From an uncultured virus (IMG/VR IMGVR_UViG_3300036832_001426) (Duplodnaviria; Heunggongvirae; Uroviricota; Caudoviricetes), in IMG/VR virus record IMGVR_UViG_3300036832_001426: a stretch of 20,000 nt of DNA; one strand, 5' to 3'. A program made the translations under genes and the position numbers. Of this stretch, positions 1 to 17,100 are shown in pieces. Below the pieces are notes generated by a model. That model did no database searches. It was not told the origin of the DNA and saw nothing but the letters and a program-made list of their open reading frames with translations. Numbering within the stretch: position 1 is the first letter of the stretch; each line of letters starts with the position of its first letter.

Positions 1-190
1 CATAGTAGTTGTGATCGAGGGCGAGGAAGACGGTCGAGATGAAGACGCTGCCGACGAGATCCTGCTGCAGGATGCGATTGTCTTTGCCTTTGGATTTGTG
101 GGAGCGCTCGAACCATTCCGCCCACTCACGCCCACTATGTGCGAGCCGGGGGTTGCCGTCGTCGTCAAGAATGTACTGTCCAAAAGCCAC
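1..190 (-). CDS. Phage-type hypothetical protein, running off the left edge
   Basis: Read manually; not in the ORF track. GTG at 190 gives VAFGQYILDDDGNPRLAHSGREWAEWFERSHKSKGKDNRILQQDLVGSVFISTVFLALDHNYY with no stop. The YILD...EWAxWF...STVFLxLDHN pattern is recalled from phage hypothetical proteins. Confidence 0.7.
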   Translation of the reverse strand, partial: MAFGQYILDDDGNPRLAHSGREWAEWFERSHKSKGKDNRILQQDLVGSVFISTVFLALDHNYY

Positions 191-239
191 TGTGCTGCCT
201 GAGGAACGAATTCCGGGGAGTTTACCACAAAGATGGGTA

Positions 240-268
240 TCGACAGACTCGCCCCGGCGCGGGATAAT
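240..268 (+). promoter_or_regulatory. Sigma70-type promoter for the putative sRNA
   Basis: TCGACA (240-245), 17-bp spacer, GATAAT (263-268); predicted start near G275. Confidence 0.65.
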
Positions 269-274
269 AGTTTC

Positions 275-363
275 GCACAACACTGGGAAGCAGGATTCAC
301 CGTTCTCTTCTCAATGCTGGTGCTCCTTGGGGCCGCGCTTGCTACGCGGCCCTCTTAATTTTT
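275..363 (+). ncRNA. Putative small regulatory RNA with an anti-SD segment
   Basis: Bounded by a promoter and a terminator, with no credible ORF inside. 275-290 pairs imperfectly with 307-323, followed by a single-stranded TCCTTG linker and the terminator hairpin. Confidence 0.55.
330..363 (+). terminator. Intrinsic terminator
   Basis: GGGCCGCG-cttgcta-CGCGGCCC (330-352) followed by TCTTAATTTTT. Confidence 0.65.
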
Positions 364-364
364 C

Positions 365-373
365 TGCTACACT
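365..373 (+). promoter_or_regulatory. Extended -10 promoter candidate for tRNA-Phe
   Basis: TG-c-TACACT about 30 nt upstream of the tRNA; a leader hairpin TGTGTT...AACACA spans 379-400. Confidence 0.45.
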
Positions 374-404
374 CTTCCTGTGTTTCACCCGAAGAACACA
401 TCAT

Positions 405-479
405 GGCTCGGTAGCTCATCGGTAGAGCGCTGCCCTGAAAAGGCAGGCGTAGGTGGTTCAATTCCGCCCCGAGCCACCA
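405..479 (+). tRNA. tRNA-Phe (anticodon GAA) with encoded CCA
   Basis: Cloverleaf: acceptor stem GGCTCGG/CCGAGCC, D arm GCTC/GAGC, anticodon stem CTGCC/GGCAG with loop CTGAAAA (GAA at 437-439), T arm GGTGG-TTCAATT-CCGCC, 3' ACCA. Confidence 0.97.
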
Positions 480-486
480 CCAATTT

Positions 487-692
487 ATTATTCATGGGAT
501 ATTCATGGGATACGACATTCATGTCCTCCGTGTCCCCCATGTCCCTGCTGGTTTCCCGCCAAAAACGCAGTTTTCTTGAAAACGCTGGACTTATCTAGGC
601 TTCCAATTAGACGGAGTTGGTACGTGGTGCCCTCACTTTTTCGCGGCTTTTGTCGGTAATTTCTTGCATTATTCATGGGATATGCATAGGAT
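487..692. repeat. att-like region with direct repeats (putative integrase arm-type sites)
   Basis: ATTATTCATGGGATATTCATGGGAT (487-511) vs ATTATTCATGGGATATGCATAGGAT (668-692), 23/25 identical; each is a tandem pair of an 11-bp ATTCATGGGAT unit. Three 9-bp RTGTCC units lie at 521-547. The region is AT-rich and directly upstream of the integrase. Confidence 0.7.
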
Positions 693-730
693 GGTCTGGC
701 AGGCCCGGCCTGCAAAGGAGCCCAGCAGCC

Positions 731-2254
731 ATGCCCAAGAAAGTCGTCATCGAAGATCTCAAGCTTTCGGTTGACCGTCCCTCGGTCGACGCCATCCGCT
801 ACAACTGCAAATGCAACGCGAAGTCCATCGAGAAATGCACCTGCAACAAATACTTTTACATCACAGGCGATCTGCTGAAGGGCGAACAGTACCGCGTCTC
901 CAGCGGTCTGGTCGACATCAAGCTCGCCCGCGAAGCGGCCACCGAGTGGCAGCGCAAACTGAAACGCGAAGAGCGCGAACTCGCGAAGCGCCACGCCAAG
1001 ACCATCACCGGGGCCATCACCATCGAACAGCTGTTCCTGCTCTACGAGACGGCGCAGGAAAGCGGGCAGGATCAGGACGAGATCGCGCTCAAGGGCGCGG
1101 CTCCTTCGGTCGGCAAAATCAAAACTCTGCGCCGCCTGCTGTGTGGCCACGAAGATCCCAAGCAGCGCGAGCTGCACGAAAAAAAATACGGCAAGCCGTT
1201 TCTTGAAGTGTTCAACGCGTTGCCCCGCGAGCAGCGTCTCATCGGAGCCAACCAGACCATCGCCAAGATCGCGCTCGCCGACGACATCACCAGCTACTGG
1301 ATGGCGCACATCTTCAAGCCAACATGGTTCGCCCGTGAGAACGGAGGCTCGCTGCACTCCATCCGCAAACGCAAGGAGCAGCTGCAGGCGGTCTGGCACC
1401 ACGCGCACAAGCTGGGAGAACTCGACGGCATGGGCGGCGGCAAGATGTGCAACTGCCCACCCTGCTCCATCGTGATTCCGAAAAAAATGACGAAGACCAT
1501 GAAGCCCACTCCGCCCGTGGACATTTGGCGATACCAAACCGCACTGGAGACCTGCGGTCGCTATCAGCAATCGCTCCGCGATCTCAATGCCGAACAACTG
1601 CGCTGTGATAACCTCCGCATGTTTTGCTTCTTGGCGATCATGATGAACTGCGGCTCGCGCCGCTCCGATACTTCGCTGATGCGGCGCAGTGCTCTCAAGG
1701 TCAACCGCGCCGGAGAAGTGACATGGGTATATGTGCCGCTCAAGAACGGCGACGAGAACAACCCGCTCAAGGTGCCCTTCCCGCGCTGGCTCTACGACGT
1801 GCTGATGTCGCTTCCGGCGCAGCCCCAGTTTTTTCACCCGAATTACTTTTTCTGTTCCGGGCCGAAAGACGATCCGCGCTCGGTCGATGGCGGAGTGCTG
1901 CTGCGCAACGCCGCTGACCCATGGTCGCGGGCCATCAAGCGCCTCGTCCAGCTGATGCCCGAAGAAGCCCGCACGGTCGACGATGGCCGCAACAAAACCA
2001 AGACCATCACGCCCCACATGTTTCGCGACGGCTTCTGCGTCGAGTGCTACGTGCAGGGCATGACGGATCGCCAGATCGCCGATGCAGTCGACGACGACGA
2101 AGACACCATTCGCCGCTCCTATTCGCCCTATCATGATCGTCAACGCGTGCGCGACAGCGTGGCTTCGATGGAAGAAGGCGTGCGCTACGTGCAGGCGGCG
2201 CTGGCCGGGCTGAACGCCGACCGCATGATGCGCGAGGCCGGGATCGTCTGGTAG
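731..2254 (+). CDS. int: Tyrosine recombinase / phage integrase (507 aa)
   Basis: AAGGAG RBS at 715-720 before ATG 731. Motifs CGSRRSD (R), LKNG (K), TPHMFRDGF (HxxR) and TIRRSYSPY (Tyr). Cys-rich N-terminal domain; adjacent to a tRNA and att-like repeats. Confidence 0.9.
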   Translation: MPKKVVIEDLKLSVDRPSVDAIRYNCKCNAKSIEKCTCNKYFYITGDLLKGEQYRVSSGLVDIKLAREAATEWQRKLKREERELAKRHAKTITGAITIEQLFLLYETAQESGQDQDEIALKGAAPSVGKIKTLRRLLCGHEDPKQRELHEKKYGKPFLEVFNALPREQRLIGANQTIAKIALADDITSYWMAHIFKPTWFARENGGSLHSIRKRKEQLQAVWHHAHKLGELDGMGGGKMCNCPPCSIVIPKKMTKTMKPTPPVDIWRYQTALETCGRYQQSLRDLNAEQLRCDNLRMFCFLAIMMNCGSRRSDTSLMRRSALKVNRAGEVTWVYVPLKNGDENNPLKVPFPRWLYDVLMSLPAQPQFFHPNYFFCSGPKDDPRSVDGGVLLRNAADPWSRAIKRLVQLMPEEARTVDDGRNKTKTITPHMFRDGFCVECYVQGMTDRQIADAVDDDEDTIRRSYSPYHDRQRVRDSVASMEEGVRYVQAALAGLNADRMMREAGIVW

Positions 2255-2491
2255 TTATCGGTTGTAGAGTTCGTCGAGATGTTCTTCGAGAAGGGACATG
2301 GGGATGCGCAACACGCGCCTCCCCTTTTTCTTGAAGCGCCCGTCCTTGAAGGTGATGTAGCGCTCGGTCAGTCGGACAATCCAGCGCCGTGCGGTTCGGG
2401 TGCTCACACTGCACCTCGCCGCGATCCATTGGGCATCGACGTCGATGTCCGTCATCGGCGGCCTCTCCGGTTTCTGTGCGCGAACGCCCAT
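2255..2491 (-). CDS. Excisionase-like HTH DNA-binding protein
   Basis: Small basic protein with HTH-like DAQWIAARCSVSTRTARRW and a wing-like RRVLRIP; convergent with int and last gene of the early region. Confidence 0.7.
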   Translation of the reverse strand: MGVRAQKPERPPMTDIDVDAQWIAARCSVSTRTARRWIVRLTERYITFKDGRFKKKGRRVLRIPMSLLEEHLDELYNR

Positions 2492-2841
2492 CAGGCCGCC
2501 TTCCTAATCCGCGAGCGCCAGCGTGGTGAGGGGCAGCCGTGCGCAAGCGGGTTATGCGCGTGATCGGAACTTTTCTCGATCAGTCCACGCTTCGCTGCTG
2601 CAACCAGCAATGGGCCCAATGCCCGGTCGGTCGGGGTTTCTGTTCCGAGACGGCGCAGCTCCACTGTGATCTCCCAGCCAAAGAATGAATCCCGTTCGCG
2701 TGCGAAGGTCTCGATCATGTGGGTGGCTTCGCTCTTCCAGTCAAGAGCGGCATGCGCGTCGGCCCTTTCCATGCCGTCTGCGCGTTCCGCCCGCCAGTCA
2801 GGAAGATCATCCTCCCCGAATAATTTGCGCTGCTGCGTCAT
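2491..2841 (-). CDS. Phage hypothetical protein (possible winged helix)
   Basis: 116 aa; TGATG overlap with the downstream gene; RALGPLLVAAAKRGLIEKS segment. Confidence 0.7.
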   Translation of the reverse strand: MTQQRKLFGEDDLPDWRAERADGMERADAHAALDWKSEATHMIETFARERDSFFGWEITVELRRLGTETPTDRALGPLLVAAAKRGLIEKSSDHAHNPLAHGCPSPRWRSRIRKAA

Positions 2842-2844
2842 TTC

Positions 2845-3039
2845 TCAGAGCACCACTCCTCTCATGTGCGGCGGGTAGCGGCCTTCGGCGGTCTCATGCT
2901 GCGTGACCCCACTGCTTCGCGGTTCCGTGCCGGAAGCGGTAGCAGCCGCGCCGGGGACGGATGTAAAAGCGATGGGGTCACGCAGAGCGAGAAACCACGC
3001 CTCGATAGCTTCAATCGTTCTTTCAGCCGGATGGTTCAT
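2845..3039 (-). CDS. Hypothetical protein
   Basis: GGAGG RBS before ATG 3039; fits the operon packing. Confidence 0.5.
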   Translation of the reverse strand: MNHPAERTIEAIEAWFLALRDPIAFTSVPGAAATASGTEPRSSGVTQHETAEGRYPPHMRGVVL

Positions 3040-3601
3040 TGCTTCCTCCATCGAATAGTGGCATTTCGAGTTCGTCTGCTGGAGCGGGGACTGTTTCCGC
3101 GAGGGGTTTGGGTTCGCCCCATTTTTGCCGCGTGCCCCGGTTCGCGCATTTTTTTAGCTCGGGATGCGCTTCCAGATGTTGTCGAAAAGGGCCGTCATCG
3201 ATTTCACCTTTCAGGGAATTGTGAAAAGCACAGCATGGCTGAATGTTCTCCAGTGTGTAGCCCTGATGAGAATTCTTGCGATCTATCCCGACGCGGATGC
3301 CTTCTTTGCGCGTGCCCCCGCCATAGACGCAGGGGCTGTTGATGACCTCCTCGTAGCGCCCACGCGCAAGCGGCGGCGAGCTGATGCGTGCTGCGGCATT
3401 GCGGTGAACCGCGTAATTTCCATTGACCCCGAGATACTCCCGCGTTCTGTTGGCCTCGCACTCCTTGCAGCTCGTCTGGAGCTTATCCGCCGTGCCCTTT
3501 TTGCTGGCGAAGTTCGCAACCGGGAGATAGCGCCTGCAGTGGAAGCACCTCTTCTCGCCCTTGTCGTTGTAACGCAGCCACGCGGTTGCTCTCCTGTTCA
3601 T
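3023..3601 (-). CDS. HNH-like (His-Me finger) endonuclease with N-terminal Zn finger
   Basis: KRCFHC...CKEC Zn motif; GIDRKNSHQGYTLENIQPCCAFHNSLKG matches the phage DRxDNxxGYxxxNxxxCCxxCN motif; ATGA overlap at 3598-3601. Confidence 0.8.
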   Translation of the reverse strand: MNRRATAWLRYNDKGEKRCFHCRRYLPVANFASKKGTADKLQTSCKECEANRTREYLGVNGNYAVHRNAAARISSPPLARGRYEEVINSPCVYGGGTRKEGIRVGIDRKNSHQGYTLENIQPCCAFHNSLKGEIDDGPFRQHLEAHPELKKCANRGTRQKWGEPKPLAETVPAPADELEMPLFDGGSNEPSG

Positions 3602-4323
3602 GCCACGATGTCCGCCGTACCTTCCAGTTCCTTCTCGAAGTACTCTTTGATGTTCTTGATGGCTTCCATCTTCCACGCTCCGCCATCCGCTTCGAACAGC
3701 GCGCAGCTGGGCATCTGGCCGGAGCGCGAGCGCAGCCGCAGGATGAAATCGCTTGAGGGCTGCGCGACCTCATGGAACGTGCGGAAGGGCGCGAGGCTCA
3801 CACGCGGCGAGACTTTTTCTTCGGTTTTTGAAACCATTCCTTGCTTTGTGACAACCTGCTGCGAATAGCCGTCGTCGTTCGAGATGGTGACCGCTTCGGC
3901 GGCAAGCCCGCTCACCAGCTTCACCACGCGCCCGTGGTTCACGCCGTAGGCCGCATCGTCGAACAGCGTCATGAGACCTATGACAAATTCGTCGGGGTCC
4001 ATCCAAGTGCCAAAGCGGAAGCGCGGCGCATCGTTGGGAATCTGCGCGTGCACCAGCGCCGGGCGGCGGTTCCACTCGTCCGGCTCGCGAGCCGTCAGCC
4101 AGACCGAGGAGTAATCCTGAATATGAATGAAGGCTGGTTCGGTTTCCTTGTTGTGCAGCTTGTACAGATCGCGGAACCCGGCGAGTGTCTGCACCGTGAT
4201 GGGTGTGATCAGCGGAGTCTTGATCTCGACCAGCTGCTTATCGGAATAGACGCGGCCATCTTCCTCGACTCGCACCGATGGTTCAGCGAGCGAAACGATT
4301 TTTTCAACGAATTCTTTCAACAT
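3598..4323 (-). CDS. Conserved prophage protein (DUF2303-like)
   Basis: AGGAGG RBS before ATG 4323 (alternative start 4416). C-terminal LAPFRTFHEVAQPSSDFILR...ALFEADGGAWKMEAIKNIKEYF motif is recalled from many prophages. Confidence 0.8.
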   Translation of the reverse strand: MLKEFVEKIVSLAEPSVRVEEDGRVYSDKQLVEIKTPLITPITVQTLAGFRDLYKLHNKETEPAFIHIQDYSSVWLTAREPDEWNRRPALVHAQIPNDAPRFRFGTWMDPDEFVIGLMTLFDDAAYGVNHGRVVKLVSGLAAEAVTISNDDGYSQQVVTKQGMVSKTEEKVSPRVSLAPFRTFHEVAQPSSDFILRLRSRSGQMPSCALFEADGGAWKMEAIKNIKEYFEKELEGTADIVA

Positions 4324-4424
4324 GCCATCCTCCTGTGCTGCGGCTGCCCCCAGACTGCGGGGCATCAGTCCGACGCTCTGGTTGAGCTGCTCGAATACTT
4401 GTCGTGGCGGTCCCATGGCTTCAC

Positions 4425-5615
4425 CTACTGCACGTAAATTGGTTTCAGGCCGAGGTGTACCTTCTGGTCTGCAATCGGCGTTGTGGTCCCGGTGATGTCG
4501 GTCTGCTTGGTGAATTTGGTTTGCCCCAGCGCGTACTCTTTGGTCGAGCAGCAACTGGAAGTGCATGACTGCGAGCTGTCCCAGAGCACCATGCCATTGC
4601 CCACCAGCATGCGGTAGACGGTGCCCTCGACGCGCACCTTCGAGGTCGACTTTTCCTGCAGCCAGCCCGTGATGGTGTTCCACGCTGTGCCCGCAAGATT
4701 GGCCTGCAGGCCGAGGTTGTCGTTCGCGTCCCAAAAATAAATGTACTGTCGCTCCAGTGGAACGCTTGCCCGCAGCATCAGTTCACGCGCAGCGAAAGAG
4801 GCGAGCGTGTCCGGGTCGGTGATAGCGTCGCCCGTGGTGATGCCGTGCTCGTCATCCCAGATCGCCGCGTCGATCTTGTCCCGCGCCAGCTCGTCGACCA
4901 CCATCTGCCACACCGCGAGGAAATTTTCCGGCGGGTAGTTGGGCTTGGAGCGCATGTGGACGTTGACGATGTCGAACATCTGGTGCCACGGGTGCGCCTC
5001 CACCAAAGGCCGGAAGTGAGAACTCATGGAGACGCCATGGAACGACGGCGAGAGAATCACGGCGGCGGGGTCAATCGAGCGAATGATGGTCGCCGCTTCC
5101 TTCGCGTAGTCCGCCATCTGCTGGATGGTCCCCGTCCAGAAACATTTGCAGTCGGGTTCGTTCCACGTCTCATAGAAGGCGACGCGGCCCTTGTAGCGCG
5201 TCACCAACGCCGTCACGAATGCTTTGTAGTCTTCGAGCTTCGGGATGGAGCAGGCGTTGGGAAACGTGCTATTCAGGCACTGTGGCGGCGGAGCCGGATC
5301 AATCGCCGCCCATGTTGGAGTGCCGCCGAAGGTGTAGAGCACATCCTGCTGTTGCGCTTCCGCCTTCGAGATCCAGTCGTCCATCTTCGACCAGTCGTAA
5401 ACGTCGCGTGAGGCCTGAATGTGCATCCACTTCACGCCGTCATCCCACAGCCGGATCCCTCTGCCGACCGCGAGCTTGCTGTTGCCGTCGATGCCGGGGA
5501 TGGTCGAGAGCTTGTTATAGGTGAGGCTGAAGAACTTCAGGTTGACAGAAGTTTGCTGCGCGGAACAGAGCGTGCAGCACAGGGTGAGTAGCAGGGTGGC
5601 CCCAAGTCTTTTCAT
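4425..5615 (-). CDS. Secreted clan GH-A (GH39/GH5-like) glycoside hydrolase
   Basis: Signal peptide MKRLGATLLLTLCCTLCSA; IRLWD...YDWSKMD; GGTPTWA; acid/base motif YETWNEP; putative nucleophile in IWDDEHG. Confidence 0.85.
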   Translation of the reverse strand: MKRLGATLLLTLCCTLCSAQQTSVNLKFFSLTYNKLSTIPGIDGNSKLAVGRGIRLWDDGVKWMHIQASRDVYDWSKMDDWISKAEAQQQDVLYTFGGTPTWAAIDPAPPPQCLNSTFPNACSIPKLEDYKAFVTALVTRYKGRVAFYETWNEPDCKCFWTGTIQQMADYAKEAATIIRSIDPAAVILSPSFHGVSMSSHFRPLVEAHPWHQMFDIVNVHMRSKPNYPPENFLAVWQMVVDELARDKIDAAIWDDEHGITTGDAITDPDTLASFAARELMLRASVPLERQYIYFWDANDNLGLQANLAGTAWNTITGWLQEKSTSKVRVEGTVYRMLVGNGMVLWDSSQSCTSSCCSTKEYALGQTKFTKQTDITGTTTPIADQKVHLGLKPIYVQ

Positions 5616-5809
5616 TTACGCTTCCTCCTCATCGAAAGTTTGCTTCTCAGTCGCTTCTTGCCCAGAAAATCTCTGATCACCTGCGCCGCCGCCGTGCGCG
5701 AGGTTTGATCGCACGGCATCTTCGGATAGCGCAGCACGTCGACCGCGAGCAACAGCGCGGCGTGCAGCCCGGAACGTTTTACTGCGCCTTTAGGCCGCAT
5801 CGCTCGCAT
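5612..5809 (-). CDS. Small basic hypothetical protein (start uncertain, 5800 or 5809)
   Basis: ORF with a 4-nt overlap onto the GH start; Arg/Lys-rich C-terminus. Confidence 0.5.
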   Translation of the reverse strand: MRAMRPKGAVKRSGLHAALLLAVDVLRYPKMPCDQTSRTAAAQVIRDFLGKKRLRSKLSMRRKRK

Positions 5810-5967
5810 ACTCCATTCACGAAGAGATGATTCCTCCACGCGTGCAAGCCGACCGAACATGTGTTGTCGGCCCAAAGCACTTCATCTGACTCCAGCACCT
5901 CGTCGTACCCTGCGAATTCTGCATCGAGCGATTCGTCGCTACGATCCTGCCGCCTCGGTTTTGCCAT
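5779..5967 (-). CDS. Small protein with C/H Zn-binding motif
   Basis: 62 aa ending CSVGLHAWRNHLFVNGVCERCG. Confidence 0.55.
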   Translation of the reverse strand: MAKPRRQDRSDESLDAEFAGYDEVLESDEVLWADNTCSVGLHAWRNHLFVNGVCERCGLKAQ

Positions 5968-6307
5968 CGGGGACTGACTCCTCTTCGCCCGTGAACAGCA
6001 GCTCCTGCCGCAGATCGCGTGAGAAGGCGAGGTACTTGCCGTCCTTCTTCGCGATATGAATCGTGCAGGTCAGGGCAGAAGTGTCGAGATCACCCAACGA
6101 GGTGTTGCAGCGACTGACTTCAGCCGTTGCCCCGGAGCGATCTGGGTAGGGTGTGAAGGTAAATTCCATCGTGATCTTCCGCACCTTCTTCACTGATGTC
6201 GTTGGATCCTGAATATTGGCAAGGATCTTTTCGAAGGCGAGAGCGAAAGCTTCCACCGCCCCGCCTTTGCAGATTGTGAGCAAGCCCTGTTCCTGTGCTT
6301 CCATCAT
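5939..6307 (-). CDS. Prophage protein of the family often annotated 'replication terminator protein'
   Basis: GGAVEAFALAFEKILANIQDPTTSVKKVRKITMEFTFTP matches the recalled GGAL.E.....ENI.DPNT...KKRKIT motif; ATGA overlap at 6304-6307. Confidence 0.75.
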   Translation of the reverse strand: MMEAQEQGLLTICKGGAVEAFALAFEKILANIQDPTTSVKKVRKITMEFTFTPYPDRSGATAEVSRCNTSLGDLDTSALTCTIHIAKKDGKYLAFSRDLRQELLFTGEEESVPDGKTEAAGS

Positions 6308-6546
6308 TGATTCCTGCATCTCCTGTGCTGGTGCTGCTGCATGGCATAGACGCCATTCGCCAGCGCACCCAGCACGGCCATGAATTTGATCCCGTTGCCC
6401 TTTTCGCTCTGATTGAGCATGTTGACTACGTTCTTCATCAGCTCGGTGCTCTCTTCCATCTCCTGCTCGGTCATGGTCTCTTTGCAGCCATGCGCGATCT
6501 CATGCGCCTGCTGGAGCATTTTGATAACTTCACAGTGTGCCGTCAC
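6304..6546 (-). CDS. Hypothetical protein
   Basis: 80 aa, GTG start abutting the upstream stop; operon packing. Confidence 0.6.
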   Translation of the reverse strand: MTAHCEVIKMLQQAHEIAHGCKETMTEQEMEESTELMKNVVNMLNQSEKGNGIKFMAVLGALANGVYAMQQHQHRRCRNQ

Positions 6547-6900
6547 CTAAAACTCCTCGAATTCCCAGTGACCATCTTTCATCCACGTTGCCGCGATGAA
6601 CTTGATCGGGAAAATTTCCGCGCAGGTCTTCACCTTCACCCGTGCGTCCTCTTCCCAGCCCGGCTTGCCTGTCGACCATTCCGACTTCACTTCGTGCGCC
6701 TCGATGTGCAGATCGTTCAAGACCACGATGAAGTCGGGCGTGTACCAAGTCCGGTCAGCGAGCCGGAACTTCCAGCACTCGAACGCCCACCAGAGGATCT
6801 CGCCGACCAGCATGCGATCCCGCAGCAGGCGCGAGTACCTCTCCTCGGTGTGGTTCATTCCGCCGCGCTCCCGCGTGGTTGCCAGTCCGCGAACCACCAT
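6547..6900 (-). CDS. DUF1064-like PD-(D/E)XK endonuclease
   Basis: AAGGAG RBS; MNHTEERY...RLADRTWYTPDFIVV...EAHEVK...DARVKVK motif. Confidence 0.8.
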   Translation of the reverse strand: MVVRGLATTRERGGMNHTEERYSRLLRDRMLVGEILWWAFECWKFRLADRTWYTPDFIVVLNDLHIEAHEVKSEWSTGKPGWEEDARVKVKTCAEIFPIKFIAATWMKDGHWEFEEF

Positions 6901-7087
6901 CGCAAATCTCCTTCCGCCGCTTGTGATCCGACCGCAGATCGCTCTGCTGAATCGAGCCGCCGCGAATCCAGACAGCCAGTCGATGATCGATGTTCAGGTG
7001 ATCCACCAACGCCATCCAGCTATCGAACTCCTCGCCGCAGGGCTTGCCTCCGGCGCGTTGATTGACGATGCCGCAGAAAAATTTCAT
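6755..7087 (-). CDS. Small protein with N-terminal C2H2 zinc finger
   Basis: FFC-x11-CGEEFDSWMALVDHLNIDH; ATGA overlap with the upstream XRE gene; the 3' part overlaps the nuclease gene by 146 nt. Confidence 0.55.
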   Translation of the reverse strand: MKFFCGIVNQRAGGKPCGEEFDSWMALVDHLNIDHRLAVWIRGGSIQQSDLRSDHKRRKEICDGGSRTGNHAGARRNEPHRGEVLAPAAGSHAGRRDPLVGVRVLEVPAR

Positions 7088-7470
7088 ACGACGGTCACCG
7101 ATGCCGATTCGCTCGCGTCACTGGCCTCGATTCTCGGCGCGATCACTCGCTTTTCTGCCAGTGCGGGGAATTCCCTCCGGCTGAACAGCGGAGACAAGAA
7201 CTCGACCAGCGGTTCGTTGAAAGCCTGCGCTATCCGGTTCAGCTCGGTGAGCCGGGGATTCTTGCCGTTGCGTTCATACTGAAAAACGTTGGTGAAAGGC
7301 ATCTCGCACGCCACCGCAAGCTGGCGCAGCGACATGCCGCTCCTGCGACGCCTCAACGACAGATAGCGACTGAAGCGCTCCAGCAAAATCTCCGGCGTCA
7401 TCGGGGAATTGCGCTTTCGCGCAACCCGCTCGCGGCGCTTTATTTCTTTCTGAGATATCTTTCGCTTCAT
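7084..7470 (-). CDS. XRE/Cro-CI family HTH transcriptional regulator
   Basis: LSLRRRRSGMSLRQLAVACEMPFTNVFQYERNGKNPRLTELNRIAQAF is an HTH_3 signature; AGGAG RBS before ATG 7470. Confidence 0.85.
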   Translation of the reverse strand: MKRKISQKEIKRRERVARKRNSPMTPEILLERFSRYLSLRRRRSGMSLRQLAVACEMPFTNVFQYERNGKNPRLTELNRIAQAFNEPLVEFLSPLFSRREFPALAEKRVIAPRIEASDASESASVTVV

Positions 7471-7541
7471 CTCGAAAGCTCCTGCTCCGGTCTTACATCG
7501 ACCTCTCCAGATCTTGCCGTCGGGAACCAAGCTCCTGTCAT
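7467..7541 (-). CDS. Putative 24-aa coupling mini-ORF
   Basis: MTGAWFPTARSGEVDVRPEQELSR; ATGA overlaps at both ends (7538-7541 and 7467-7470). Confidence 0.35.
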   Translation of the reverse strand: MTGAWFPTARSGEVDVRPEQELSR

Positions 7542-7714
7542 TCCTCGGCGATGTGGTAGCTCACCCCCTTGAAGATGTGGTTCTTTCCGTTTTTGTCGTT
7601 GAACTGCAGGCGGTCGCCGTCTTCGTCTGGCTCGGTTGCATTGTTGAAGACTTCAACCTCTGTGCCATTGCGCACGTTGATGGTGTATTTGTTGTCGCCG
7701 TCCATGTGTCCCAC
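7538..7714 (-). CDS. Small hypothetical protein
   Basis: AAGGAG RBS before GTG 7714 (or ATG 7705); KYTINVRNGTEVEVF...HIFKGVSYHI. Confidence 0.65.
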   Translation of the reverse strand: MGHMDGDNKYTINVRNGTEVEVFNNATEPDEDGDRLQFNDKNGKNHIFKGVSYHIAEE

Positions 7715-7727
7715 GTTTGGGCTCCTT

Positions 7728-8855
7728 TCACTTTTCATCAAAATTTAGCGGGATGCCGTTCTGTACGGGCTCAGATGCCGGGCCGGATGTCGCGTCAGCG
7801 GGTGTGGACGTCCCAGAGTCCCCCTCTACCGAGGCGATCTTCTCCGGCCCAGCAGCCTGCGCAGAGTCGGTTTTCCCTTTGTCATCGCTCTGCTTGTCGG
7901 TCGGGGCAGCAGCGGGTGCTGATGCCGCAGCACCCGTTGCTTCAGGAGCCGCTTCCTTCGTAGCGACTTCAGCTGCCCCGGACTTTTCCGTGGGTGCTTC
8001 CACGGGTTTCTCGTATTTCTTTTTGATCTGGTCGAGATTCGATTTCGACTTCTCCGCCAGCTTCGTGTCGGGATGGGCCTCGGGCGTGAAAGCGCGATCC
8101 GGCGAGATCTCGTTTTCCCTGATCGCGTTCAGCAGGCCACGCAGCGCGGTCAGATGTTCGAGCGTGATCTCTTCGAGTCCCTTGACTTCGAGCTTGGCGT
8201 AGATCTGCTCCGGCTTCACGCCCACCAGCTGAAAAGTTTTCAGCATCGCGGTGCGGCGCACGTCGAGAGTCTTGAGATCGCCAGCCACTACGGAACGTGC
8301 TGCCGCGTAGAGCTTCTTCCATAGCGGCTTCGGGATCCCGCGCAGCACCGCATTGCGCAGCGCAATCGAGCACGCAGCATTCGCGGTGACGGTGATCATG
8401 TCGGAGTTGAAGCGGTTGCCGCTGCGATCCGTGATGCGCCGCTTCACTTCGTAGGCGACGGCCACGTTGTTCTCCAGATCGAAGAACGTTCCCATGGCGG
8501 TGACGAATTCCTGATCCTCGCCGATGGGACGCGCACCGCAGCGATTGTTGCCATACGCATGCGCCAGCACTTCGGCGAAGCGCACGCTCGGGCCCTCGAT
8601 AATTTTCCCGGCGCGAGGCAGCGCGTAGATGCACTCTTCCGCCGTCTCCGCGTCCTGCGTGACCAGCTGCATCGCAGTCTGCATGACCTTGGTCATCGGA
8701 CGCGGGTACTGCTTCGCGGTCGCGATCTGCATGTCGATCTCGCCCTTCTGCAGCAGCGCCAGCGTTTTCGAATCGAAGACCTGCGCCGGGGCGAGTACTT
8801 CGGTTTCTTGCTGCTCATCCGGCTCGGTCGAAGGGTGCTCAATTGTCACTGCCAT
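7728..8855 (-). CDS. Conserved phage protein, putative single-strand annealing recombinase
   Basis: GEIDMQIATAKQYPR...YALPRAGKIIEGPSVRFAE...NAACSIALRNAVLRGIP family motif; low-complexity acidic tail ending IPLNFDEK; located near the YqaJ-like exonuclease. Confidence 0.7.
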   Translation of the reverse strand: MAVTIEHPSTEPDEQQETEVLAPAQVFDSKTLALLQKGEIDMQIATAKQYPRPMTKVMQTAMQLVTQDAETAEECIYALPRAGKIIEGPSVRFAEVLAHAYGNNRCGARPIGEDQEFVTAMGTFFDLENNVAVAYEVKRRITDRSGNRFNSDMITVTANAACSIALRNAVLRGIPKPLWKKLYAAARSVVAGDLKTLDVRRTAMLKTFQLVGVKPEQIYAKLEVKGLEEITLEHLTALRGLLNAIRENEISPDRAFTPEAHPDTKLAEKSKSNLDQIKKKYEKPVEAPTEKSGAAEVATKEAAPEATGAAASAPAAAPTDKQSDDKGKTDSAQAAGPEKIASVEGDSGTSTPADATSGPASEPVQNGIPLNFDEK

Positions 8856-9947: not shown

Positions 9948-10466
9948 TCAGGGAACCAGAATTCCCAATCCGAAACTTCCCGTGTGATAACTGGGCTGCT
10001 TGCCGATGCTCGCGGCGTACTCTTCGAGCGCCTGCCGCACTCCCGCGCCTGCCAGATCAACATCGTGGCAAAGGATCTTGCCGCCCTCGCGCACCAGTGG
10101 CGCGTAGATCTTCAATTCGCTGCGCGTCTCTTCGAGATCGTGGCTGGAGTCGAGGAAGAACACGTCCAGCTCCGACGGGATCGATGCGAGAATTCGCTTG
10201 GCATCGACTACCGAGTGCGCGTGCAGGAATGTCCAGTCGGGGTCGTCGTAGAGGTGCCCGCAGCTCGCGATATCAACCGACCACAGATGCCCGCTGTGGG
10301 TTCCCTCATGCTCATGCTCCTTGAGGCCGAGCAGCAGCGCCGAGGTGGAGATGCCGCCGCGTACTCCAATTTCGAGCACGTAGCCATGGGCTTCGCTGCG
10401 CAGGAAGGGCAAGTGTTCGGAGATGTCTGACCACTTGCACCCTTCCGCGTAATTGTGTTCGAGCAT
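9948..10466 (-). CDS. Class I SAM-dependent methyltransferase (Methyltransf_24-like)
   Basis: VLEIGVRGGIST, WSVDI, FFLDSSH...LVREGGKILCHD; TGATG overlap at 10464-10468. Confidence 0.85.
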   Translation of the reverse strand: MLEHNYAEGCKWSDISEHLPFLRSEAHGYVLEIGVRGGISTSALLLGLKEHEHEGTHSGHLWSVDIASCGHLYDDPDWTFLHAHSVVDAKRILASIPSELDVFFLDSSHDLEETRSELKIYAPLVREGGKILCHDVDLAGAGVRQALEEYAASIGKQPSYHTGSFGLGILVP

Positions 10467-13783: not shown

Positions 13784-14178
13784 GCCTTCACCTTCTTTCG
13801 CATGAAGCCCGGCAGCTCGCCGCGCAGCTTGCGTTCTTTCGCCTGTGCCTTGCCCGCATTGGAGCGGGCGCGGGCGGTGAGCGCCGCCGCCTGTCGCTCG
13901 ATGGTGGCAGTCACTGAGGGCGGCAGGATTAGCCGCATCACGCCATCCTTGTCCATGAACTTCAGCACGATGAAATCGCCCATGGTGATCTTGCAGGTGC
14001 CGTCACCCTGCGGCTTGCGATGCTCGCCCCTGATGGTTTGAATCACGAAGGTCTCAGCCTCGCCTGTGATGTTGTTGACGGTTTCAATGGTGGTGGGTTT
14101 GGTCTGCAGGTTGTTGCCGCCCTGCAGCCCTGCGTTCATGCGGTCGAACTTGCTGATGGTTTCGTATTGCTGTTCCAT
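13780..14178 (-). CDS. Phage hypothetical protein
   Basis: 132 aa; strong AAGGAG RBS; basic C-terminus. Confidence 0.75.
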   Translation of the reverse strand: MEQQYETISKFDRMNAGLQGGNNLQTKPTTIETVNNITGEAETFVIQTIRGEHRKPQGDGTCKITMGDFIVLKFMDKDGVMRLILPPSVTATIERQAAALTARARSNAGKAQAKERKLRGELPGFMRKKVKA

Positions 14179-14311
14179 GCTGTTGCTCCTTGAGTGTAAG
14201 TGCTGGTTCGTTTCCCCAGCAACACAATTATCTCATGCGCGTTTTTCGCGATGTGCGTTTCAGGCCCTGTTCATGCGGGTTTGAGCGATGTCGGCGTTGC
14301 AGGCAAAGGAA

Positions 14312-14353
14312 ATAAAAAAGGGCTTGACAGGTCATCGCTCCCGTCAAGCCCTC
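14312..14353 (-). terminator. Intrinsic terminator
   Basis: Minus strand AGGGCTTGAC-gggagcgatgacct-GTCAAGCCCT followed by TTTTTATTT. Confidence 0.75.
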
Positions 14354-14400
14354 TTCCCGTTTTGCAGTCTTCAGTGTGAATGGATTGCGGCCATTATACC

Positions 14401-14691
14401 TCAGGACTTCATAGCCTGAGCCGGGTTGGTGTGGGCGACGGCGTAGTTGTAACCGCAGTTGAGGCCGCAAAATCGGTTGTCCCGGTAAGCGCCATAGGTG
14501 CCTAGAAAAATCTTGTGCTCGCGATCCCACTTGCTCTGCGCATCCGGCTCGTTATCAGTCCCGCGCAGCCATGGGCGAGGCCCGTCCCAGCTGTAGTTCG
14601 GGCGCAGCTCGCGGTTGCAGTGCAGGCAGCGCGGGCGCAGGCCGACAGCTCTCGGTTTGAGCTTTGTGGCCTTCGTGACTTCTATGCTCAT
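14401..14691 (-). CDS. Zn-finger protein (CxxC...FCxxxC)
   Basis: RCLHCNRELRP...NRFCGLNCG; GGAGG RBS; ATGA overlap. Confidence 0.7.
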   Translation of the reverse strand: MSIEVTKATKLKPRAVGLRPRCLHCNRELRPNYSWDGPRPWLRGTDNEPDAQSKWDREHKIFLGTYGAYRDNRFCGLNCGYNYAVAHTNPAQAMKS

Positions 14692-15041
14692 TTGACCTCC
14701 GAGGGAAAGCGCACGATGCTGCGCAGCAGGATCACGCTGAACCCGTGACGCCTGTACCACGACCGCAGCTGGTGCACGTTGAGGCGCGGCTTGTCGCCTA
14801 CAGGCTCGATGTGCCCGGAGATGGTGACCTGATGCTCATCGGCCAGCTTGCACAGCCAGTCAAGCGCCGCGCTGCCGTCGCGATTGCCGCGATTGAAAGT
14901 GCGAATGCAGCTGAGGCGTACCCTGCCGTCGAAGGATTTGATTTCGAACCCGGCCCGGTTCTCCCAGATGCGCTCGAAATCCGCGAGTGGGTTCACCGAG
15001 GTGGCCGCGTTGAAGGCTGCGAAAAAAGTGTCGAGGCTCAC
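14688..15041 (-). CDS. GNAT-like acetyltransferase
   Basis: GTG 15041 after AAGGAG; NRGNRDGSAALDWLCKLAD (motif A-like) and LRSWYRRHGF (motif B-like). Confidence 0.7.
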   Translation of the reverse strand: MSLDTFFAAFNAATSVNPLADFERIWENRAGFEIKSFDGRVRLSCIRTFNRGNRDGSAALDWLCKLADEHQVTISGHIEPVGDKPRLNVHQLRSWYRRHGFSVILLRSIVRFPSEVK

Positions 15042-15060
15042 AGCTGTTGCTCCTTGTGGG

Positions 15061-15339
15061 CTATTGCCCGGTGTGAAATGCGTGAGGGTTGCCGCCCAAG
15101 CAGGGCTTGCGCGGATGCTTCGGATCGGGCGCGAGGCACTTGGGGCAGGTCTCGAAGGGCCGCCCCGGTTGAGATCGCTTCGCGCCCTTCGCCCATGCGC
15201 GGCAGCCGTCCCGCGAACAGCGCTGCGGAGCCTGCGCTGCCAGCCAGACCAGCCCACACTCCTCGCAGATATAGATCTCCTCGCCTTGGGCTTCTAATGC
15301 GTCGCGCAGGTCGTTCCAGTTGGTGATCGGGTGCAGCAT
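15061..15339 (-). CDS. Cys-rich Zn-binding hypothetical protein
   Basis: CEECG...CSRDGC...CPKC...C...H. Confidence 0.65.
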   Translation of the reverse strand: MLHPITNWNDLRDALEAQGEEIYICEECGLVWLAAQAPQRCSRDGCRAWAKGAKRSQPGRPFETCPKCLAPDPKHPRKPCLGGNPHAFHTGQ

Positions 15340-15719: not shown

Positions 15720-16381
15720 TCGATCTCCGCTGCGGACGCGTCGAGCTGCGCGGCCAGCGCCTGCATGTAGTCGCGCTGGCGCTCCCAGTAGCGCGTGAAC
15801 TCCGCCGGGATGACCTCGGGGTGATCGCGCAGCATGTTCACCGCACGCTGGGCGAGAACCTTGACCAGCTCGGGATCGTGCGGCGTGATCATGGCCTTGA
15901 GGTTGGTGGTCGCCAGATTGTGCCATGGCTCGCCCTCGCGGTAGAGGATGTCGTCGGGCAGGTAGCCTGCCGACTTCCACACCGTCCACTCAATCGAAAC
16001 CAGATCGAGATCGAGATCAAAGCTGTAAGTGAAGTCGGAGCGGTTCAGCACCGACCCGGCCAGATGATGCTGCGCCTCGAAGCACACGGTGTGGGTCGCG
16101 TCCTTGCCGACTTCCTCGTCGATGCCGCCGGAGCCGCAGCGGACCCCGCCAAACAGCGGCACGAAGTTCGAACTGGTCACCTTGCCCGCGAACGTCGCAT
16201 AGAAGCTGGGATAGCCGCCATCGCCGTGCAGCGTGAAGCGCAATTCCACGACCTGCGGCTGGCACTCGACGGTCTTGTGCCACGCCGCGCACTCGTAATG
16301 CTGGGTGAAGGATTTAGTGGTGCGCAGGGCCACCCGGCCCAGAATGTAACTGCCCTTGCCATTCGACTCGATGCGTTTCAT
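15716..16381 (-). CDS. Hypothetical protein
   Basis: AAGGAG RBS before ATG 16381; 221 aa. Confidence 0.7.
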   Translation of the reverse strand: MKRIESNGKGSYILGRVALRTTKSFTQHYECAAWHKTVECQPQVVELRFTLHGDGGYPSFYATFAGKVTSSNFVPLFGGVRCGSGGIDEEVGKDATHTVCFEAQHHLAGSVLNRSDFTYSFDLDLDLVSIEWTVWKSAGYLPDDILYREGEPWHNLATTNLKAMITPHDPELVKVLAQRAVNMLRDHPEVIPAEFTRYWERQRDYMQALAAQLDASAAEIE

Positions 16382-16454
16382 GTTTGCTGTGCTCCTTGGT
16401 TCGCTGAATGCGAACACTCAGAACCGCTGCACGCAGCGGGCCTGATGCCCGCGT

Positions 16455-17009
16455 TCAGCCGCAGATCCGGTTTTCCCAGTAGTCGATTACCTTGCGCACC
16501 TCGGTGCCGTCGCCCACATACTCTTCGAGATTCGTGGTGTTATCGCAGATCACATCCCAGCCGCTCTCGCCGTAGATCAGGCGAACCCAGCCGTGGTATT
16601 TGCCGTCGCGGAAGGGCTTGATGTAGTCCTCGTCGGTCAGGTGCAAGGCCTTGAAGATCGCCCGGGCATCGGTCGACTTCACAATCTCGAACTCGCCGTC
16701 CTCGCATCCACCGTTATCAATGGTGATCGAGAAACCCGCCGCCAGCAGCGCCCGCACCACCTTGTGGGAGATCGCCTTGTCCGCCCGCATAACCTCGGCA
16801 TGACGCTTCTTGCGGGCGATCTCCTCGGTGATCCAGTGCGCCGCGCTCGCCCACGCCTTAGCCGCATCCACCACGCGATACTGCGCTGAAACTCGCGGCC
16901 CGGCAGCAGGCTCGGATACGATCCAGACCTCAACGCCATTGCCCTGCAATTCCGCCTGCGGATACTGCTCCTTCACGATCTCGACATCGGTCTTGAGTTG
17001 CTTTGCCAT
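16455..17009 (-). CDS. Phage early hypothetical protein
   Basis: First gene after a strong promoter; VRALLAAGFSITIDNG...STDARAI...TDEDYI...GWVRLIYGESGWDVICD pattern recalled from phage early genes. Confidence 0.75.
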   Translation of the reverse strand: MAKQLKTDVEIVKEQYPQAELQGNGVEVWIVSEPAAGPRVSAQYRVVDAAKAWASAAHWITEEIARKKRHAEVMRADKAISHKVVRALLAAGFSITIDNGGCEDGEFEIVKSTDARAIFKALHLTDEDYIKPFRDGKYHGWVRLIYGESGWDVICDNTTNLEEYVGDGTEVRKVIDYWENRICG

Positions 17010-17045
17010 GGTGAACGCTCCTTGGGGGCATTGCCCCTACCCCAT

Positions 17046-17074
17046 GTTATAGACGAAGCCGTCTATTGTGTCAA
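17046..17074 (-). promoter_or_regulatory. Near-consensus sigma70 promoter with embedded palindromic operator
   Basis: TTGACA (17074-17069), 17-bp spacer, TATAAC (17051-17046); ATAGACG-aagc-CGTCTAT palindrome at 17049-17066. Confidence 0.8.
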
Positions 17075-17100
17075 GGACGAAACGAGGCATGACAACTTAA

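What the first reader, a model, noticed from the sequence alone, without database searches (positions are those of the whole stretch)
240..363. Putative phage sRNA complementary to the extended RBS of the integrase and four early genes
Seen: a promoter (TCGACA-17-GATAAT) and a terminator delimit an ~85-nt non-coding unit containing ATGCTGGTGCTCCTTGGGG (314-332). Near-identical text on the + strand, i.e. antisense to the minus-strand mRNAs, covers the RBS of four genes: ATGCTGTTGCTCCTTG at 14177-14192 (15/16), GCTGTTGCTCCTTG at 15043-15056 (13/14), TGCTGTGCTCCTTGG at 16385-16399 (one-base gap) and GCTCCTTGGGG at 17017-17027 (11/11). The integrase RBS AAGGAGCCCAGCA (715-727) is its reverse complement with one gap. 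The matches extend beyond the generic AAGGAG core. In the predicted fold, UCCUU lies unpaired between a 5' hairpin and the terminator, like a toehold. Inference: a trans-acting multi-target RNA that co-represses int and early genes, forming an RNA layer of the lysis/lysogeny switch. Caveat: part of the seed is predicted to be paired in the 5' hairpin.
Basis: partly seen in the sequence, partly recalled or inferred. Interest (0 to 1): 0.85.

Follow-up and report, generated by a model that had tools for sequence, protein, structure and literature searches.

The report
Orphan ribosome-site copy, possible antisense RNA
Next to a prophage sits an extra, gene-less copy of the hairpin-plus-ribosome-binding-site module that several prophage genes use, placed backwards inside a promoter-terminator unit, so it may make a small repressor RNA, but nothing yet shows that it is transcribed.

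Summary
The likeness beyond AAGGAG is not chance. AAGGAGCANCAGC occurs exactly 3 times in 20 kb, all on the minus strand.

A + strand unit is credible:
- The promoter-like site at 240-268 scores 10/12, the better of only two in the window.
- A 9-pair GC hairpin with a T-run follows at 329-363.
- The fold has z -4.6.

Three points weaken the proposed function:
- The unit lies upstream of tRNA-Phe, outside the prophage's int-side junction.
- The "seed" is a further copy of a module (hairpin, AAGGAGC, CA-rich spacer, start codon) used at int and the early genes. The antisense of any true copy pairs with the other copies almost as well.
- With intramolecular structure included, predicted binding is no better than controls.

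No Rfam family, relatives or RNA data were found.

My odds are roughly 0.35 for an anti-initiation-site sRNA, 0.3 for a minus-strand leader or relic, 0.15 for a tRNA leader and 0.12 for no function. Interest is moderate.

The parts
240..268 (+). sigma-70-like promoter TCGACA-17-GATAAT; predicted start near 275
   Evidence: 10 of 12, the better of only 2 promoter-like sites in the 20 kb. It is the only + strand candidate at 8/12 or better in 100-480 in my relaxed scan.
275..362 (+). predicted ~88-nt small RNA (not shown to be transcribed)
   Evidence: Fold -36.1 kcal/mol, z -4.61, 0 of 200 shuffles as good. No Rfam family.
284..313 (+). inner hairpin that forms only on the + strand (three G-U pairs)
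   Evidence: -9.9 kcal/mol (z -2.3) on +, against -2.8 kcal/mol (z +0.43) on -.
314..328 (+). antisense of SD + spacer + start codon ('seed'). 324-328 UCCUU is unpaired; 320-323 pair with 275-278
329..363 (+). intrinsic-terminator-like hairpin (9 pairs, 8 G-C, loop 7) with tail CTTAATTTTT
   Evidence: Hairpin alone is -18.2 kcal/mol, z -3.16.
297..353 (-). orphan initiation module. Hairpin 352..330, C at 329, AAGGAG 328..323, spacer CACCAGCA 322..315, TTG 314..312, then a 5-codon ORF ending at TGA 299..297
2..190 (-). left neighbour, N-terminal 63 codons of a small protein of a phage-borne family; start is GTG at 190
   Evidence: 69 related metagenome loci. Homologues begin a few residues before the YILD motif. 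Phage contexts.
405..479 (+). tRNA-Phe (GAA), the integration target
491..682 (+). three TTCATGGGATA repeats (491, 502, 672), read as arm-type integrase sites
   Evidence: 3 matches against 0.14 expected; 0 of 200 shuffles reached 3.
699..733 (+). int initiation module: hairpin 699-713, AAGGAGC 715-721, CCAGCAGCC, ATG 731
   Evidence: Integrase identified.
14176..14192 (-). g13780 initiation region CAAGGAGCAACAGC-ATG (no adjacent hairpin)
15039..15069 (-). g14688 initiation module: hairpin 15069..15058, AAGGAGCAACAGCT, GTG 15041
16379..16415 (-). g15716 initiation module: hairpin 16415..16399, AAGGAGCACAGCAAAC, ATG 16381
17007..17074 (-). g16455: promoter TTGACA-17-TATAAC (17074..17046), hairpin 17037..17025, AAGGAGC, ATG 17009

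Best explanation
The interval holds an orphan copy of a repeated translation-initiation module. The module is a GC hairpin, 1-2 nt, AAGGAGC, a CA-rich ...CAGC spacer and a start codon. The adjacent prophage uses it at int and at several unrelated early genes.

Here the module is followed by only a 5-codon ORF. It lies in antisense inside a + strand promoter-terminator unit, and the module's hairpin, extended to 9 pairs and given a T-run, serves as the terminator.

My committed reading is that about 88 nt are transcribed from about 275 to about 362 on the + strand. The 3' part of this RNA (AUGCUGGUGCUCCUU, with UCCUU exposed) pairs across the Shine-Dalgarno sequence, spacer and start codon of module-bearing mRNAs and blocks ribosome loading. 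It would act in trans on int, g13780, g15716 and g14688. It would act in cis on its own minus-strand copy if that strand is transcribed towards the left gene.

Shown: the sequence family, the architecture, the promoter and terminator matches and the fold.

Inferred: transcription, pairing in vivo, repression and any role in the lysis-lysogeny choice.

The RNA would be encoded outside the prophage's int-side junction, beside a phage-family gene. Its owner (host, an older mobile element or the same phage) is unknown.
For: - Promoter-like site 10/12 with a 17-nt spacer, the better of 2 in 20 kb where shuffles give 4.7.
- The host appears to use this promoter type. The early-operon promoter I found by relaxed scan scores 11/12.
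- Hairpin of 9 pairs (8 G-C) plus a T-rich tail on the + strand only. The hairpins of the other modules have no T-run (read).
- Fold z -4.61. The inner hairpin 284-313 is stable only on the + strand.
- There is no + strand gene upstream that would need the terminator, because the neighbours are divergent.
- Only a 5-codon ORF follows the module on the minus strand.
- No minus-strand promoter better than 8/12 with a 19-nt spacer.
- Seed-only hybridisation to 29 initiation regions: int -22.7, g13780 -21.8, g15716 -20.4, g5939 -19.8, g14688 -19.6 kcal/mol. This beats controls that keep the core and shuffle the flank (top five 1/1000).
- The site's antisense is marginally the best 'hub' of the family.
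Against: - There is no transcript evidence. The only run holding the DNA is a soil-metagenome DNA run.
- No relatives of the locus were found, so there is no conservation or covariation to examine.
- No Rfam match.
- With intramolecular structure included, net binding (best -15.0 kcal/mol) is matched by 63/150 full shuffles, 94/150 core-kept shuffles and 35/150 flank-only shuffles. The top-three sum is matched by 17/150 flank-only shuffles.
- Multi-target complementarity is a property of every member of the module family.
- The 16-mer is a common phage initiation region elsewhere. It has at least 120 hits in IMG/VR, and 62 of 120 start an ORF of 40 codons or more.
- Part of the seed (320-323) is paired in the 5' hairpin.
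- The T-run starts only after CUCUUAA, which is not an ideal terminator tail.
- The mismatch to g13780 and g14688 is G opposite A, not a wobble.
Confidence: 0.35

Rival explanations
1. Minus-strand reading. The module works, or once worked, as what it looks like: a 5' hairpin plus a strong Shine-Dalgarno sequence plus a start codon. It would lie on a minus-strand transcript that leads to the left gene. That would make it either a leader with a 5-codon upstream ORF (LRRER, with rare AGA AGA codons) or the decayed start of a lost phage gene. On this reading the + strand promoter and T-run are incidental.
For: - The site matches true initiation regions in every element. It has a hairpin ending 1 nt before AAGGAG, as do int, g16455 and g15716; g14688's ends 2 nt before. 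Such hairpins occur at 7 of 14 AAGGAG sites against an 11.3% background, P 4e-4.
- AAGGAGC-N0-3-CAGC occurs at 5 of 14 sites.
- TTG lies 8 nt after the SD, the same spacing as GTG in g14688.
- The layout (A/T-rich -10-like element, 6 nt, hairpin, SD) mirrors the g16455 promoter and leader.
- The same 16-mer starts real ORFs in 62 of 120 viral loci.
- The left gene belongs to a phage-borne family, so a shared phage 'dialect' is plausible.
Against: - The ORF has only 5 codons, and the left gene starts 107 nt (297 to 190) beyond its stop codon.
- The stretch 190-313 does not look coding. GC3 is about 52% by my hand count, against 72-84% in the genes.
- The best minus-strand promoter is 8/12 with a 19-nt spacer.
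- In the minus-strand fold the TTG is buried in a stem.
- This reading does not explain the 10/12 + strand promoter, the T-run or the + strand-specific hairpin.
Confidence: 0.3
2. tRNA leader. The promoter at 240-268 is the promoter of tRNA-Phe. Positions 275-404 form a long 5' leader that is removed by processing, and the hairpin/U-run is a leaky terminator or a processing signal. The likeness to initiation regions is a relic with no function of its own.
For: In my relaxed scan no other + strand promoter candidate at 8/12 or better exists between 100 and the tRNA at 405. Only 41 nt (364-404) separate the T-run from the tRNA.
Against: A -18.2 kcal/mol hairpin followed by a T-rich tail between promoter and tRNA would waste most transcripts. 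A 130-nt leader is unusually long for a single tRNA gene (general knowledge, not tested here). Promoter scans of this kind miss many real promoters.
Confidence: 0.15
3. No function. A generic good initiation sequence, a GC hairpin and a promoter-like match coincide by chance in an intergenic region. A reader scanning 20 kb for such coincidences picked them out.
For: - The 16-mer is common across unrelated viral contigs (at least 120 hits).
- CAGC is about twice as frequent as uniform expectation in this window.
- Terminator-like hits in the window equal chance overall: 17 found against 16.5 in shuffles.
- The structure-aware binding test is not significant.
Against: - Three exact copies of the 13-mer in 20 kb, against 0 in 458,911 nt of 69 other metagenome loci.
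- Only 2 of 120 viral loci have two copies.
- Sequence, hairpin and spacing coincide at one site.
- The promoter match is the best in a window that has fewer such matches than shuffles.
Confidence: 0.12

Closest known systems
Start-associated sequences (SAS) and extended SAS of Cluster K mycobacteriophages (PMC3203893; passages read)
   Same: Both are short asymmetric repeats that contain the AGGAG core. Both sit just upstream of the start codons of unrelated non-structural genes, and about half carry an inverted repeat immediately upstream. Some of those phages have a single copy not associated with a gene start. The authors leave open whether an RNA or a protein binds the repeats.
   Different: - The sequence differs from the SAS consensus printed in that paper.
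- Only 3 exact and 5 relaxed copies are seen here in 20 kb, against 11-19 per genome there.
- The upstream inverted repeats here differ in sequence but keep their pairing, which suggests RNA hairpins. The ESAS repeats are conserved in sequence and were judged unlikely to pair.
- The host here is unknown, not Mycobacterium.
- The orphan copy here has the same orientation as the early genes, not the opposite one.
Phage antisense immunity RNAs: P1/P7 c4 (PMC8201110, passages read); P22 sar and P4 CI RNA (recalled, not read here)
   Same: These are small untranslated RNAs of temperate phages that pair with the ribosome-binding region or leader of early-gene mRNAs and hold lytic or antirepressor functions down. 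P4 CI and c4 act on more than one site.
   Different: There is no match to any Rfam family, including the C4 family. The candidate is outside the prophage's int-side junction and is an independent promoter-terminator unit, not processed from the target operon. int is among the predicted targets.
Multi-target bacterial sRNAs with anti-Shine-Dalgarno seeds (recalled general class; no paper read)
   Same: A short exposed pyrimidine motif (UCCUU) next to a terminator could occlude the SD of many mRNAs.
   Different: Here the complementarity extends through the spacer to the start codon, because the seed is a mirror copy of one particular initiation module. Chaperone dependence is unknown.
5'-terminal stem-loops that stabilise mRNAs (recalled general mechanism)
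   Same: On the minus-strand reading, a hairpin at or near the 5' end lies directly before the SD, as at g16455 just downstream of its promoter.
   Different: No minus-strand start site has been shown, and the downstream ORF has only 5 codons.

Membership tests
Independent sRNA gene (orphan promoter + intrinsic terminator) | Promoter on the same strand 50-400 nt upstream of the terminator, in an intergenic region | tested here: met
   240-268, 10/12. The region lies between divergent genes.
Independent sRNA gene (orphan promoter + intrinsic terminator) | GC-rich hairpin followed by a U-tract | tested here: met
   329-353, 9 pairs, -18.2 kcal/mol. The tail has 7 U in 10 but is interrupted.
Independent sRNA gene (orphan promoter + intrinsic terminator) | A transcript with defined ends | not testable with these tools
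   No RNA run holds the stretch.
Independent sRNA gene (orphan promoter + intrinsic terminator) | Conservation or covariation in relatives | tested here: inconclusive
   No related locus in genome, viral or phage collections.
Rfam C4 antisense RNA (P1/P7/P4 type) and all other Rfam families | Match to the covariance model | tested here: not met
   cmscan at gathering score over the window, and at E up to 10 over 150-720: only the tRNA and chance-level hits.
Trans-acting anti-RBS sRNA with several targets | Complementarity to target RBSs beyond the generic SD core | tested here: met
   Seed-only duplexes against core-kept controls: top five 1/1000.
Trans-acting anti-RBS sRNA with several targets | Complementarity exceeds what the targets' own antisense strands show to each other | tested here: not met
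   Top-5 sums are -104.3 for the site against -100.1, -97.8, -97.3 and -95.1 for true initiation regions.
Trans-acting anti-RBS sRNA with several targets | Favourable binding after paying for intramolecular structure | tested here: inconclusive
   Net -15.0, -14.8 and -14.2 kcal/mol, but 35/150 flank-shuffled controls do as well for the best target and 17/150 for the top three.
Start-associated sequences (Cluster K type) | Asymmetric repeat containing the SD core, just upstream of starts of unrelated non-structural genes | tested here: met
   g13780 and g14688 show no protein similarity.
Start-associated sequences (Cluster K type) | The consensus sequence of the family as printed in PMC3203893 | tested here: not met
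   The motif here is AAGGAGCANCAGC. Only AGGAGC is shared with the printed consensus.
Start-associated sequences (Cluster K type) | 11-19 copies per genome and absence from the host chromosome | not testable with these tools
   Only 20 kb is visible and no genome is held.
Start-associated sequences (Cluster K type) | Extended form: conserved 17-bp inverted repeats upstream | tested here: not met
   Hairpins are present at 4 of 5 relaxed copies, but with different sequences and 4-8 bp stems.

The most novel reading that the evidence does not exclude
An sRNA born by turning one copy of a phage translation-initiation module around and adding a promoter and a T-run. It would be encoded just outside the prophage, beside the tRNA attachment site. 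It would co-repress int and several early genes by covering SD-to-start. That would make it the first identified trans-acting ligand for start-associated repeats, and an RNA layer of prophage control owned by the host or by a neighbouring element and not by the prophage itself.
Probability: 0.2. Interest if true: 0.8.

Novelty: new variant of a known kind. Interest (0 to 1): 0.38.

Why it matters
Repeated start-associated sequences in phages have had no known binding partner since they were described. The authors left open whether an RNA or a protein binds them (PMC3203893). If this unit is transcribed, it gives a concrete, testable candidate: an RNA that is the exact mirror of such a module. 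It would also show a simple route by which regulatory RNAs can arise from their targets.

If it is not transcribed, the finding still documents a hairpin-plus-extended-SD module shared by int and unrelated early genes of an uncultured soil prophage. It also carries a caution for sRNA target prediction: a sequence copied from one member of an RBS family will always look like a multi-target regulator.

Tried and rejected
- **Genome context:** no whole genome is held for the window, so host RBS usage and the left flank could not be examined.
- **Wrong frame:** I first used the wrong frame for the left gene (window:1-195:-). Those results for that gene are void. They were repeated in the right frame (2-190).
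- **Exact 27-nt pattern of the site:** 0 hits in genome contigs and 0 in viral contigs.
- **Megablast of 1-8000 against phages:** no match.
- **Integrase as query:** no relative in genome contigs or viral contigs.
- **Other proteins against viral contigs:** the protein of 7728-8855 and g13780 gave no usable locus.
- **Pfam and PHROGs for the left gene:** none.
- **Sequencing runs:** no RNA holder is listed. The only holder is a soil-metagenome DNA run that may be the source of the window.
- **Laying that run's contigs:** no piece spans 439-450. One contig of depth 25.9 follows the window to 479, the tRNA's last base, and then leaves it. I could not tell an empty attachment site from another organism's tRNA, so I draw no conclusion on prophage borders.
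- **No repeat of the tRNA 3' part in the window:** no attR is seen.
- **Whole-length duplexfold of the 88-nt RNA against initiation regions:** gave unrealistically long duplexes and was discarded.
- **Earlier notes of this scan:** nothing by place, sequence or words.
- **Literature:** a search for prophage + small RNA + integrase mRNA + ribosome binding site found 0 papers.
- **Paralogy as a source of the shared initiation region:** rejected, because g13780 and g14688 show no protein similarity.
- **A + strand 14-codon ORF (314-358):** considered as a small peptide. I rejected it as unlikely because it has no SD and is too short for a membrane helix.

Full report
**Setting**

The window has 60% G+C. 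Its DNA is held by a single soil-metagenome run, and no genome is held for it.

From left to right the layout is as follows.

- **Left gene.** A minus-strand gene starts at GTG 190 and runs off the left edge. Its 63 visible residues have relatives in 69 metagenome loci at up to 56% identity. In the 39 loci I examined, the reading frame has a possible start a few residues before the YILD motif. This fixes the start at 190 and not at 283 or 300.
- **tRNA-Phe** at 405-479 on the + strand.
- **Three TTCATGGGATA repeats** at 491, 502 and 672 (3 found against 0.14 expected).
- **A tyrosine-integrase gene** at 731-2254 on the + strand.
- **A minus-strand early region** from 17009 down to 2255. It includes a RecE-like exonuclease, a methyltransferase, an HTH regulator, a resolvase-like protein and an HNH/endonuclease VII-like protein.
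- **A promoter** TTGACA-17-TATAAC at 17074..17046, found by my relaxed scan (11/12).

The interval 240-363 therefore lies in the divergent gap between the left gene and the tRNA, on the far side of the tRNA from int. It is outside the prophage's int-side junction.

The left gene's family is itself phage-borne. In other loci it sits beside an integrase, a portal protein, a primase and ligase, or a DnaC-like loader (11 of 29 neighbouring ORFs had PHROG hits). It also occurs in contigs with arrays of 22-28 tRNAs. Who owns the left flank stays open.

**The observation**

All quoted strings are at the stated coordinates. The four minus-strand sites are true initiation regions:

| Gene | Initiation region |
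|---|---|
| g13780 | CAAGGAGCAACAGC-ATG |
| g14688 | CAAGGAGCAACAGCT-GTG |
| g15716 | CCAAGGAGCACAGCAAAC-ATG |
| g16455 | CCCCAAGGAGCGTTCACC-ATG |
| int | AAAGGAGCCCAGCAGCC-ATG |

The likeness beyond the core is real.

- AAGGAGCANCAGC has 3 exact copies, at 316-328, 14179-14191 and 15043-15055, all on the minus strand.
- With up to 2 mismatches there are 10 matches against 2.42 expected, and 0 of 200 shuffles reached 10.
- 5 of the window's 14 AAGGAG sites are followed by C-N0-3-CAGC, against a measured background of 1.2% (P 5.5e-7). Leaving the site out, it is 4 of 13 (P 1.6e-5).
- g13780 and g14688 are unrelated proteins, so gene duplication does not explain their shared initiation region.

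**What the site is**

Aligned on the minus strand, the site has every element of these initiation regions.

- **Hairpin.** A perfect hairpin ends 1 nt before AAGGAG. It has 8 bp here, 6 bp at int, 6 bp at g15716 and 5 bp at g16455. At g14688 it has 4 bp and ends 2 nt before AAGGAG. Such hairpins occur at 7 of 14 AAGGAG sites against an 11.3% background (P 4e-4). Hairpins of 5 bp or more occur at 5 of 14 against 3.2% (P 5.5e-5).
- **Pairing kept, sequence not.** The stem sequences differ between copies while the pairing is kept.
- **Spacer and start.** Next come AAGGAGC, a CA-rich spacer ending in CAGC(A), and TTG at the 8-nt spacing that g14688 uses for GTG.
- **Extent of homology.** Beyond about 17 nt there is no extended homology.

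The site is therefore a further copy of a repeated initiation module, but an orphan one. The TTG opens only LRRER-stop. The left gene starts 107 nt (297 to 190) beyond that stop codon.

I took the antisense 15-mer of each true initiation region and paired it with the other initiation regions.

| Antisense 15-mer of | Top-5 energy sum (kcal/mol) |
|---|---|
| the site | -104.3 |
| g13780 | -100.1 |
| int | -97.8 |
| g14688 | -97.3 |
| g15716 | -95.1 |

'Complementary to the RBS of int and four early genes' is therefore what any reversed member of this family would show. It does not by itself argue for an antisense function.

The motif is also a generally good initiation region.

- 67 of the 120 are followed by G, and 62 open an ORF of 40 codons or more.
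- What is unusual here is the repetition. Only 2 of those 120 loci carry two copies of the 13-mer.
- There are 0 copies in 458,911 nt of the 69 metagenome loci.

**Evidence for a + strand RNA**

- The promoter-like site at 240-268 scores 10/12 with a 17-nt spacer. It is the better of only two such sites in 20 kb, where shuffles give 4.7.
- It is the only + strand candidate at 8/12 or better in 100-480.
- The hairpin at 329-353 has 9 pairs (8 G-C) and -18.2 kcal/mol. It is followed by CTTAATTTTT on the + strand only. The other modules' hairpins have no T-run (read).
- The 89-nt fold has -36.1 kcal/mol and z -4.61. UCCUU is unpaired.
- The outer stem folds about equally on both strands (-17.4 against -16.7 kcal/mol). 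The inner hairpin 284-313, with three G-U pairs, is stable only on the + strand (-9.9, z -2.3, against -2.8, z +0.43).
- The best minus-strand promoter candidate is 8/12 with a 19-nt spacer.

**Evidence on pairing**

I chose 29 gene starts out of the 36 ORFs first listed. I dropped seven overlapping or doubtful ones: 3483-3773, 3598-4734, 6755-7087, 9948-10619, 14228-14530, 15531-15989 and 19502-19999.

*Seed alone.* The seed 314-328 hybridises best with int (-22.7), g13780 (-21.8), g15716 (-20.4), g5939 (-19.8) and g14688 (-19.6 kcal/mol). Controls that keep CUCCUU and shuffle the nine 5' bases reach the observed best value in 19/1000, the top-three sum in 2/1000 and the top-five sum in 1/1000.

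*Whole 88-nt RNA.* When the RNA and each initiation region may also fold on themselves, net binding is -15.0 (g13780), -14.8 (g15716), -14.2 (g14688), -10.7 (g16455) and -8.5 (int). This is no better than controls.

| Control | Controls matching the best target | Controls matching the top-three sum |
|---|---|---|
| Full body shuffle | 63/150 | 33/150 |
| Core kept, rest shuffled | 94/150 | 63/150 |
| Flank only shuffled | 35/150 | 17/150 |

**Weighing**

The fact is an orphan copy of a shared initiation module. The open question is which strand matters.

- **+ strand sRNA (0.35).** This is favoured by the promoter, the T-run, the + strand-specific hairpin and the lack of a real ORF or good promoter on the minus strand. 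The RNA would be the mirror image of the module and would act as an anti-initiation-site repressor. If the minus strand is also transcribed, it would first be a cis-antisense of that leader.
- **Minus-strand leader or relic (0.3).** This is favoured by the complete match of architecture, including the start-codon spacing.
- **tRNA-Phe leader (0.15).** There is no other promoter candidate before the tRNA.
- **Plain coincidence (0.12).**

**Comparison with what is known**

The closest described phenomenon is the start-associated sequences of Cluster K mycobacteriophages. These are 13-bp asymmetric repeats containing AGGAG, a few bases before the starts of unrelated non-structural genes. About half have upstream inverted repeats, and some phages have a lone copy not tied to a gene start. 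The binding partner, RNA or protein, is undetermined (PMC3203893, passages read; its supplementary PDFs were not seen).

The present motif is not that family. The sequence differs, few copies are visible, and the upstream repeats vary in sequence but keep their pairing.

By mechanism, the sRNA reading resembles phage antisense immunity RNAs such as P1 c4 (PMC8201110, passages), and P22 sar and P4 CI (recalled). No Rfam model matches.

**Verdict**

The candidate is a reasonable one to test. Its headline argument, multi-target complementarity, is explained by family membership. Nothing shows transcription or conservation. Novelty: a new variant of a known kind. Interest: 0.38.

Noticed in passing
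window 17025-17037 and 15058-15069 (minus strand): Two of the module hairpins are near-identical in sequence (GGGGCAATGCCCC and GGGCAATAGCCC on the minus strand). The first lies directly after the early promoter. They could be recognition hairpins for a phage RNA-binding or antitermination factor.
   Followed up: no
window 17046-17130: A divergent promoter pair: minus strand TTGACA-17-TATAAC (11/12) and + strand TGGACG-18-TATAGT (9/12). It looks like a switch region. The + strand gene it faces (17156-19288) is a 710-aa PKD-domain protein, which is unusual for that position.
   Followed up: partly
window 14357..14304 (minus strand): The strongest terminator-like site of the window (18 pairs plus a T-run) lies inside the early region. 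It is followed by a GATAAT -10-like element before g13780, so g13780 may be its own transcription unit.
   Followed up: partly
window 10307-10325 (minus strand): A further near-copy, AAGGAGCATGAGC-ATG (1 mismatch to the 13-mer), lies inside the methyltransferase ORF 9948-10619 but out of frame with it. It would open only a 33-codon ORF.
   Followed up: partly
window 2-190 (minus strand) and loci L001-L069: The left gene belongs to a widespread family of roughly 100-250-aa proteins with the motif pattern YILD...W..WFE...VSTVFLALDH...LWETM.F. It has no Pfam or PHROG hit but 69 metagenome relatives, many in phage contexts.
   Followed up: partly
L017 8184-8255 and L018 423-494: Contigs carrying a homologue of the left gene encode a tRNA with anticodon TTA, which reads a stop codon. 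This hints at stop-codon suppression or recoding in that phage.
   Followed up: no
window 314-358 (+ strand): A 14-codon ORF (MLVLLGAALATRPS) lies inside the candidate RNA. It starts at the ATG of the seed and ends just before the T-run. It has no Shine-Dalgarno sequence.
   Followed up: partly
window 439-479: In the source run's contigs, the pieces break inside the tRNA (439/450). One contig of depth 25.9 follows the window to base 479, the last base of the tRNA, and then diverges. This is compatible with an empty attachment site or with another organism's tRNA.
   Followed up: partly
window 4425-5615 (minus strand): A glycoside-hydrolase-like gene (weak GH5/GH39/GH10 matches) sits among the prophage early genes.
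   Followed up: no
window 263-269: The + strand -10 element GATAAT overlaps a minus-strand TATTAT (269..264). A back-to-back promoter for the left gene would therefore compete with the candidate sRNA promoter. This is read by eye; the minus-strand -35 is poor.
   Followed up: no
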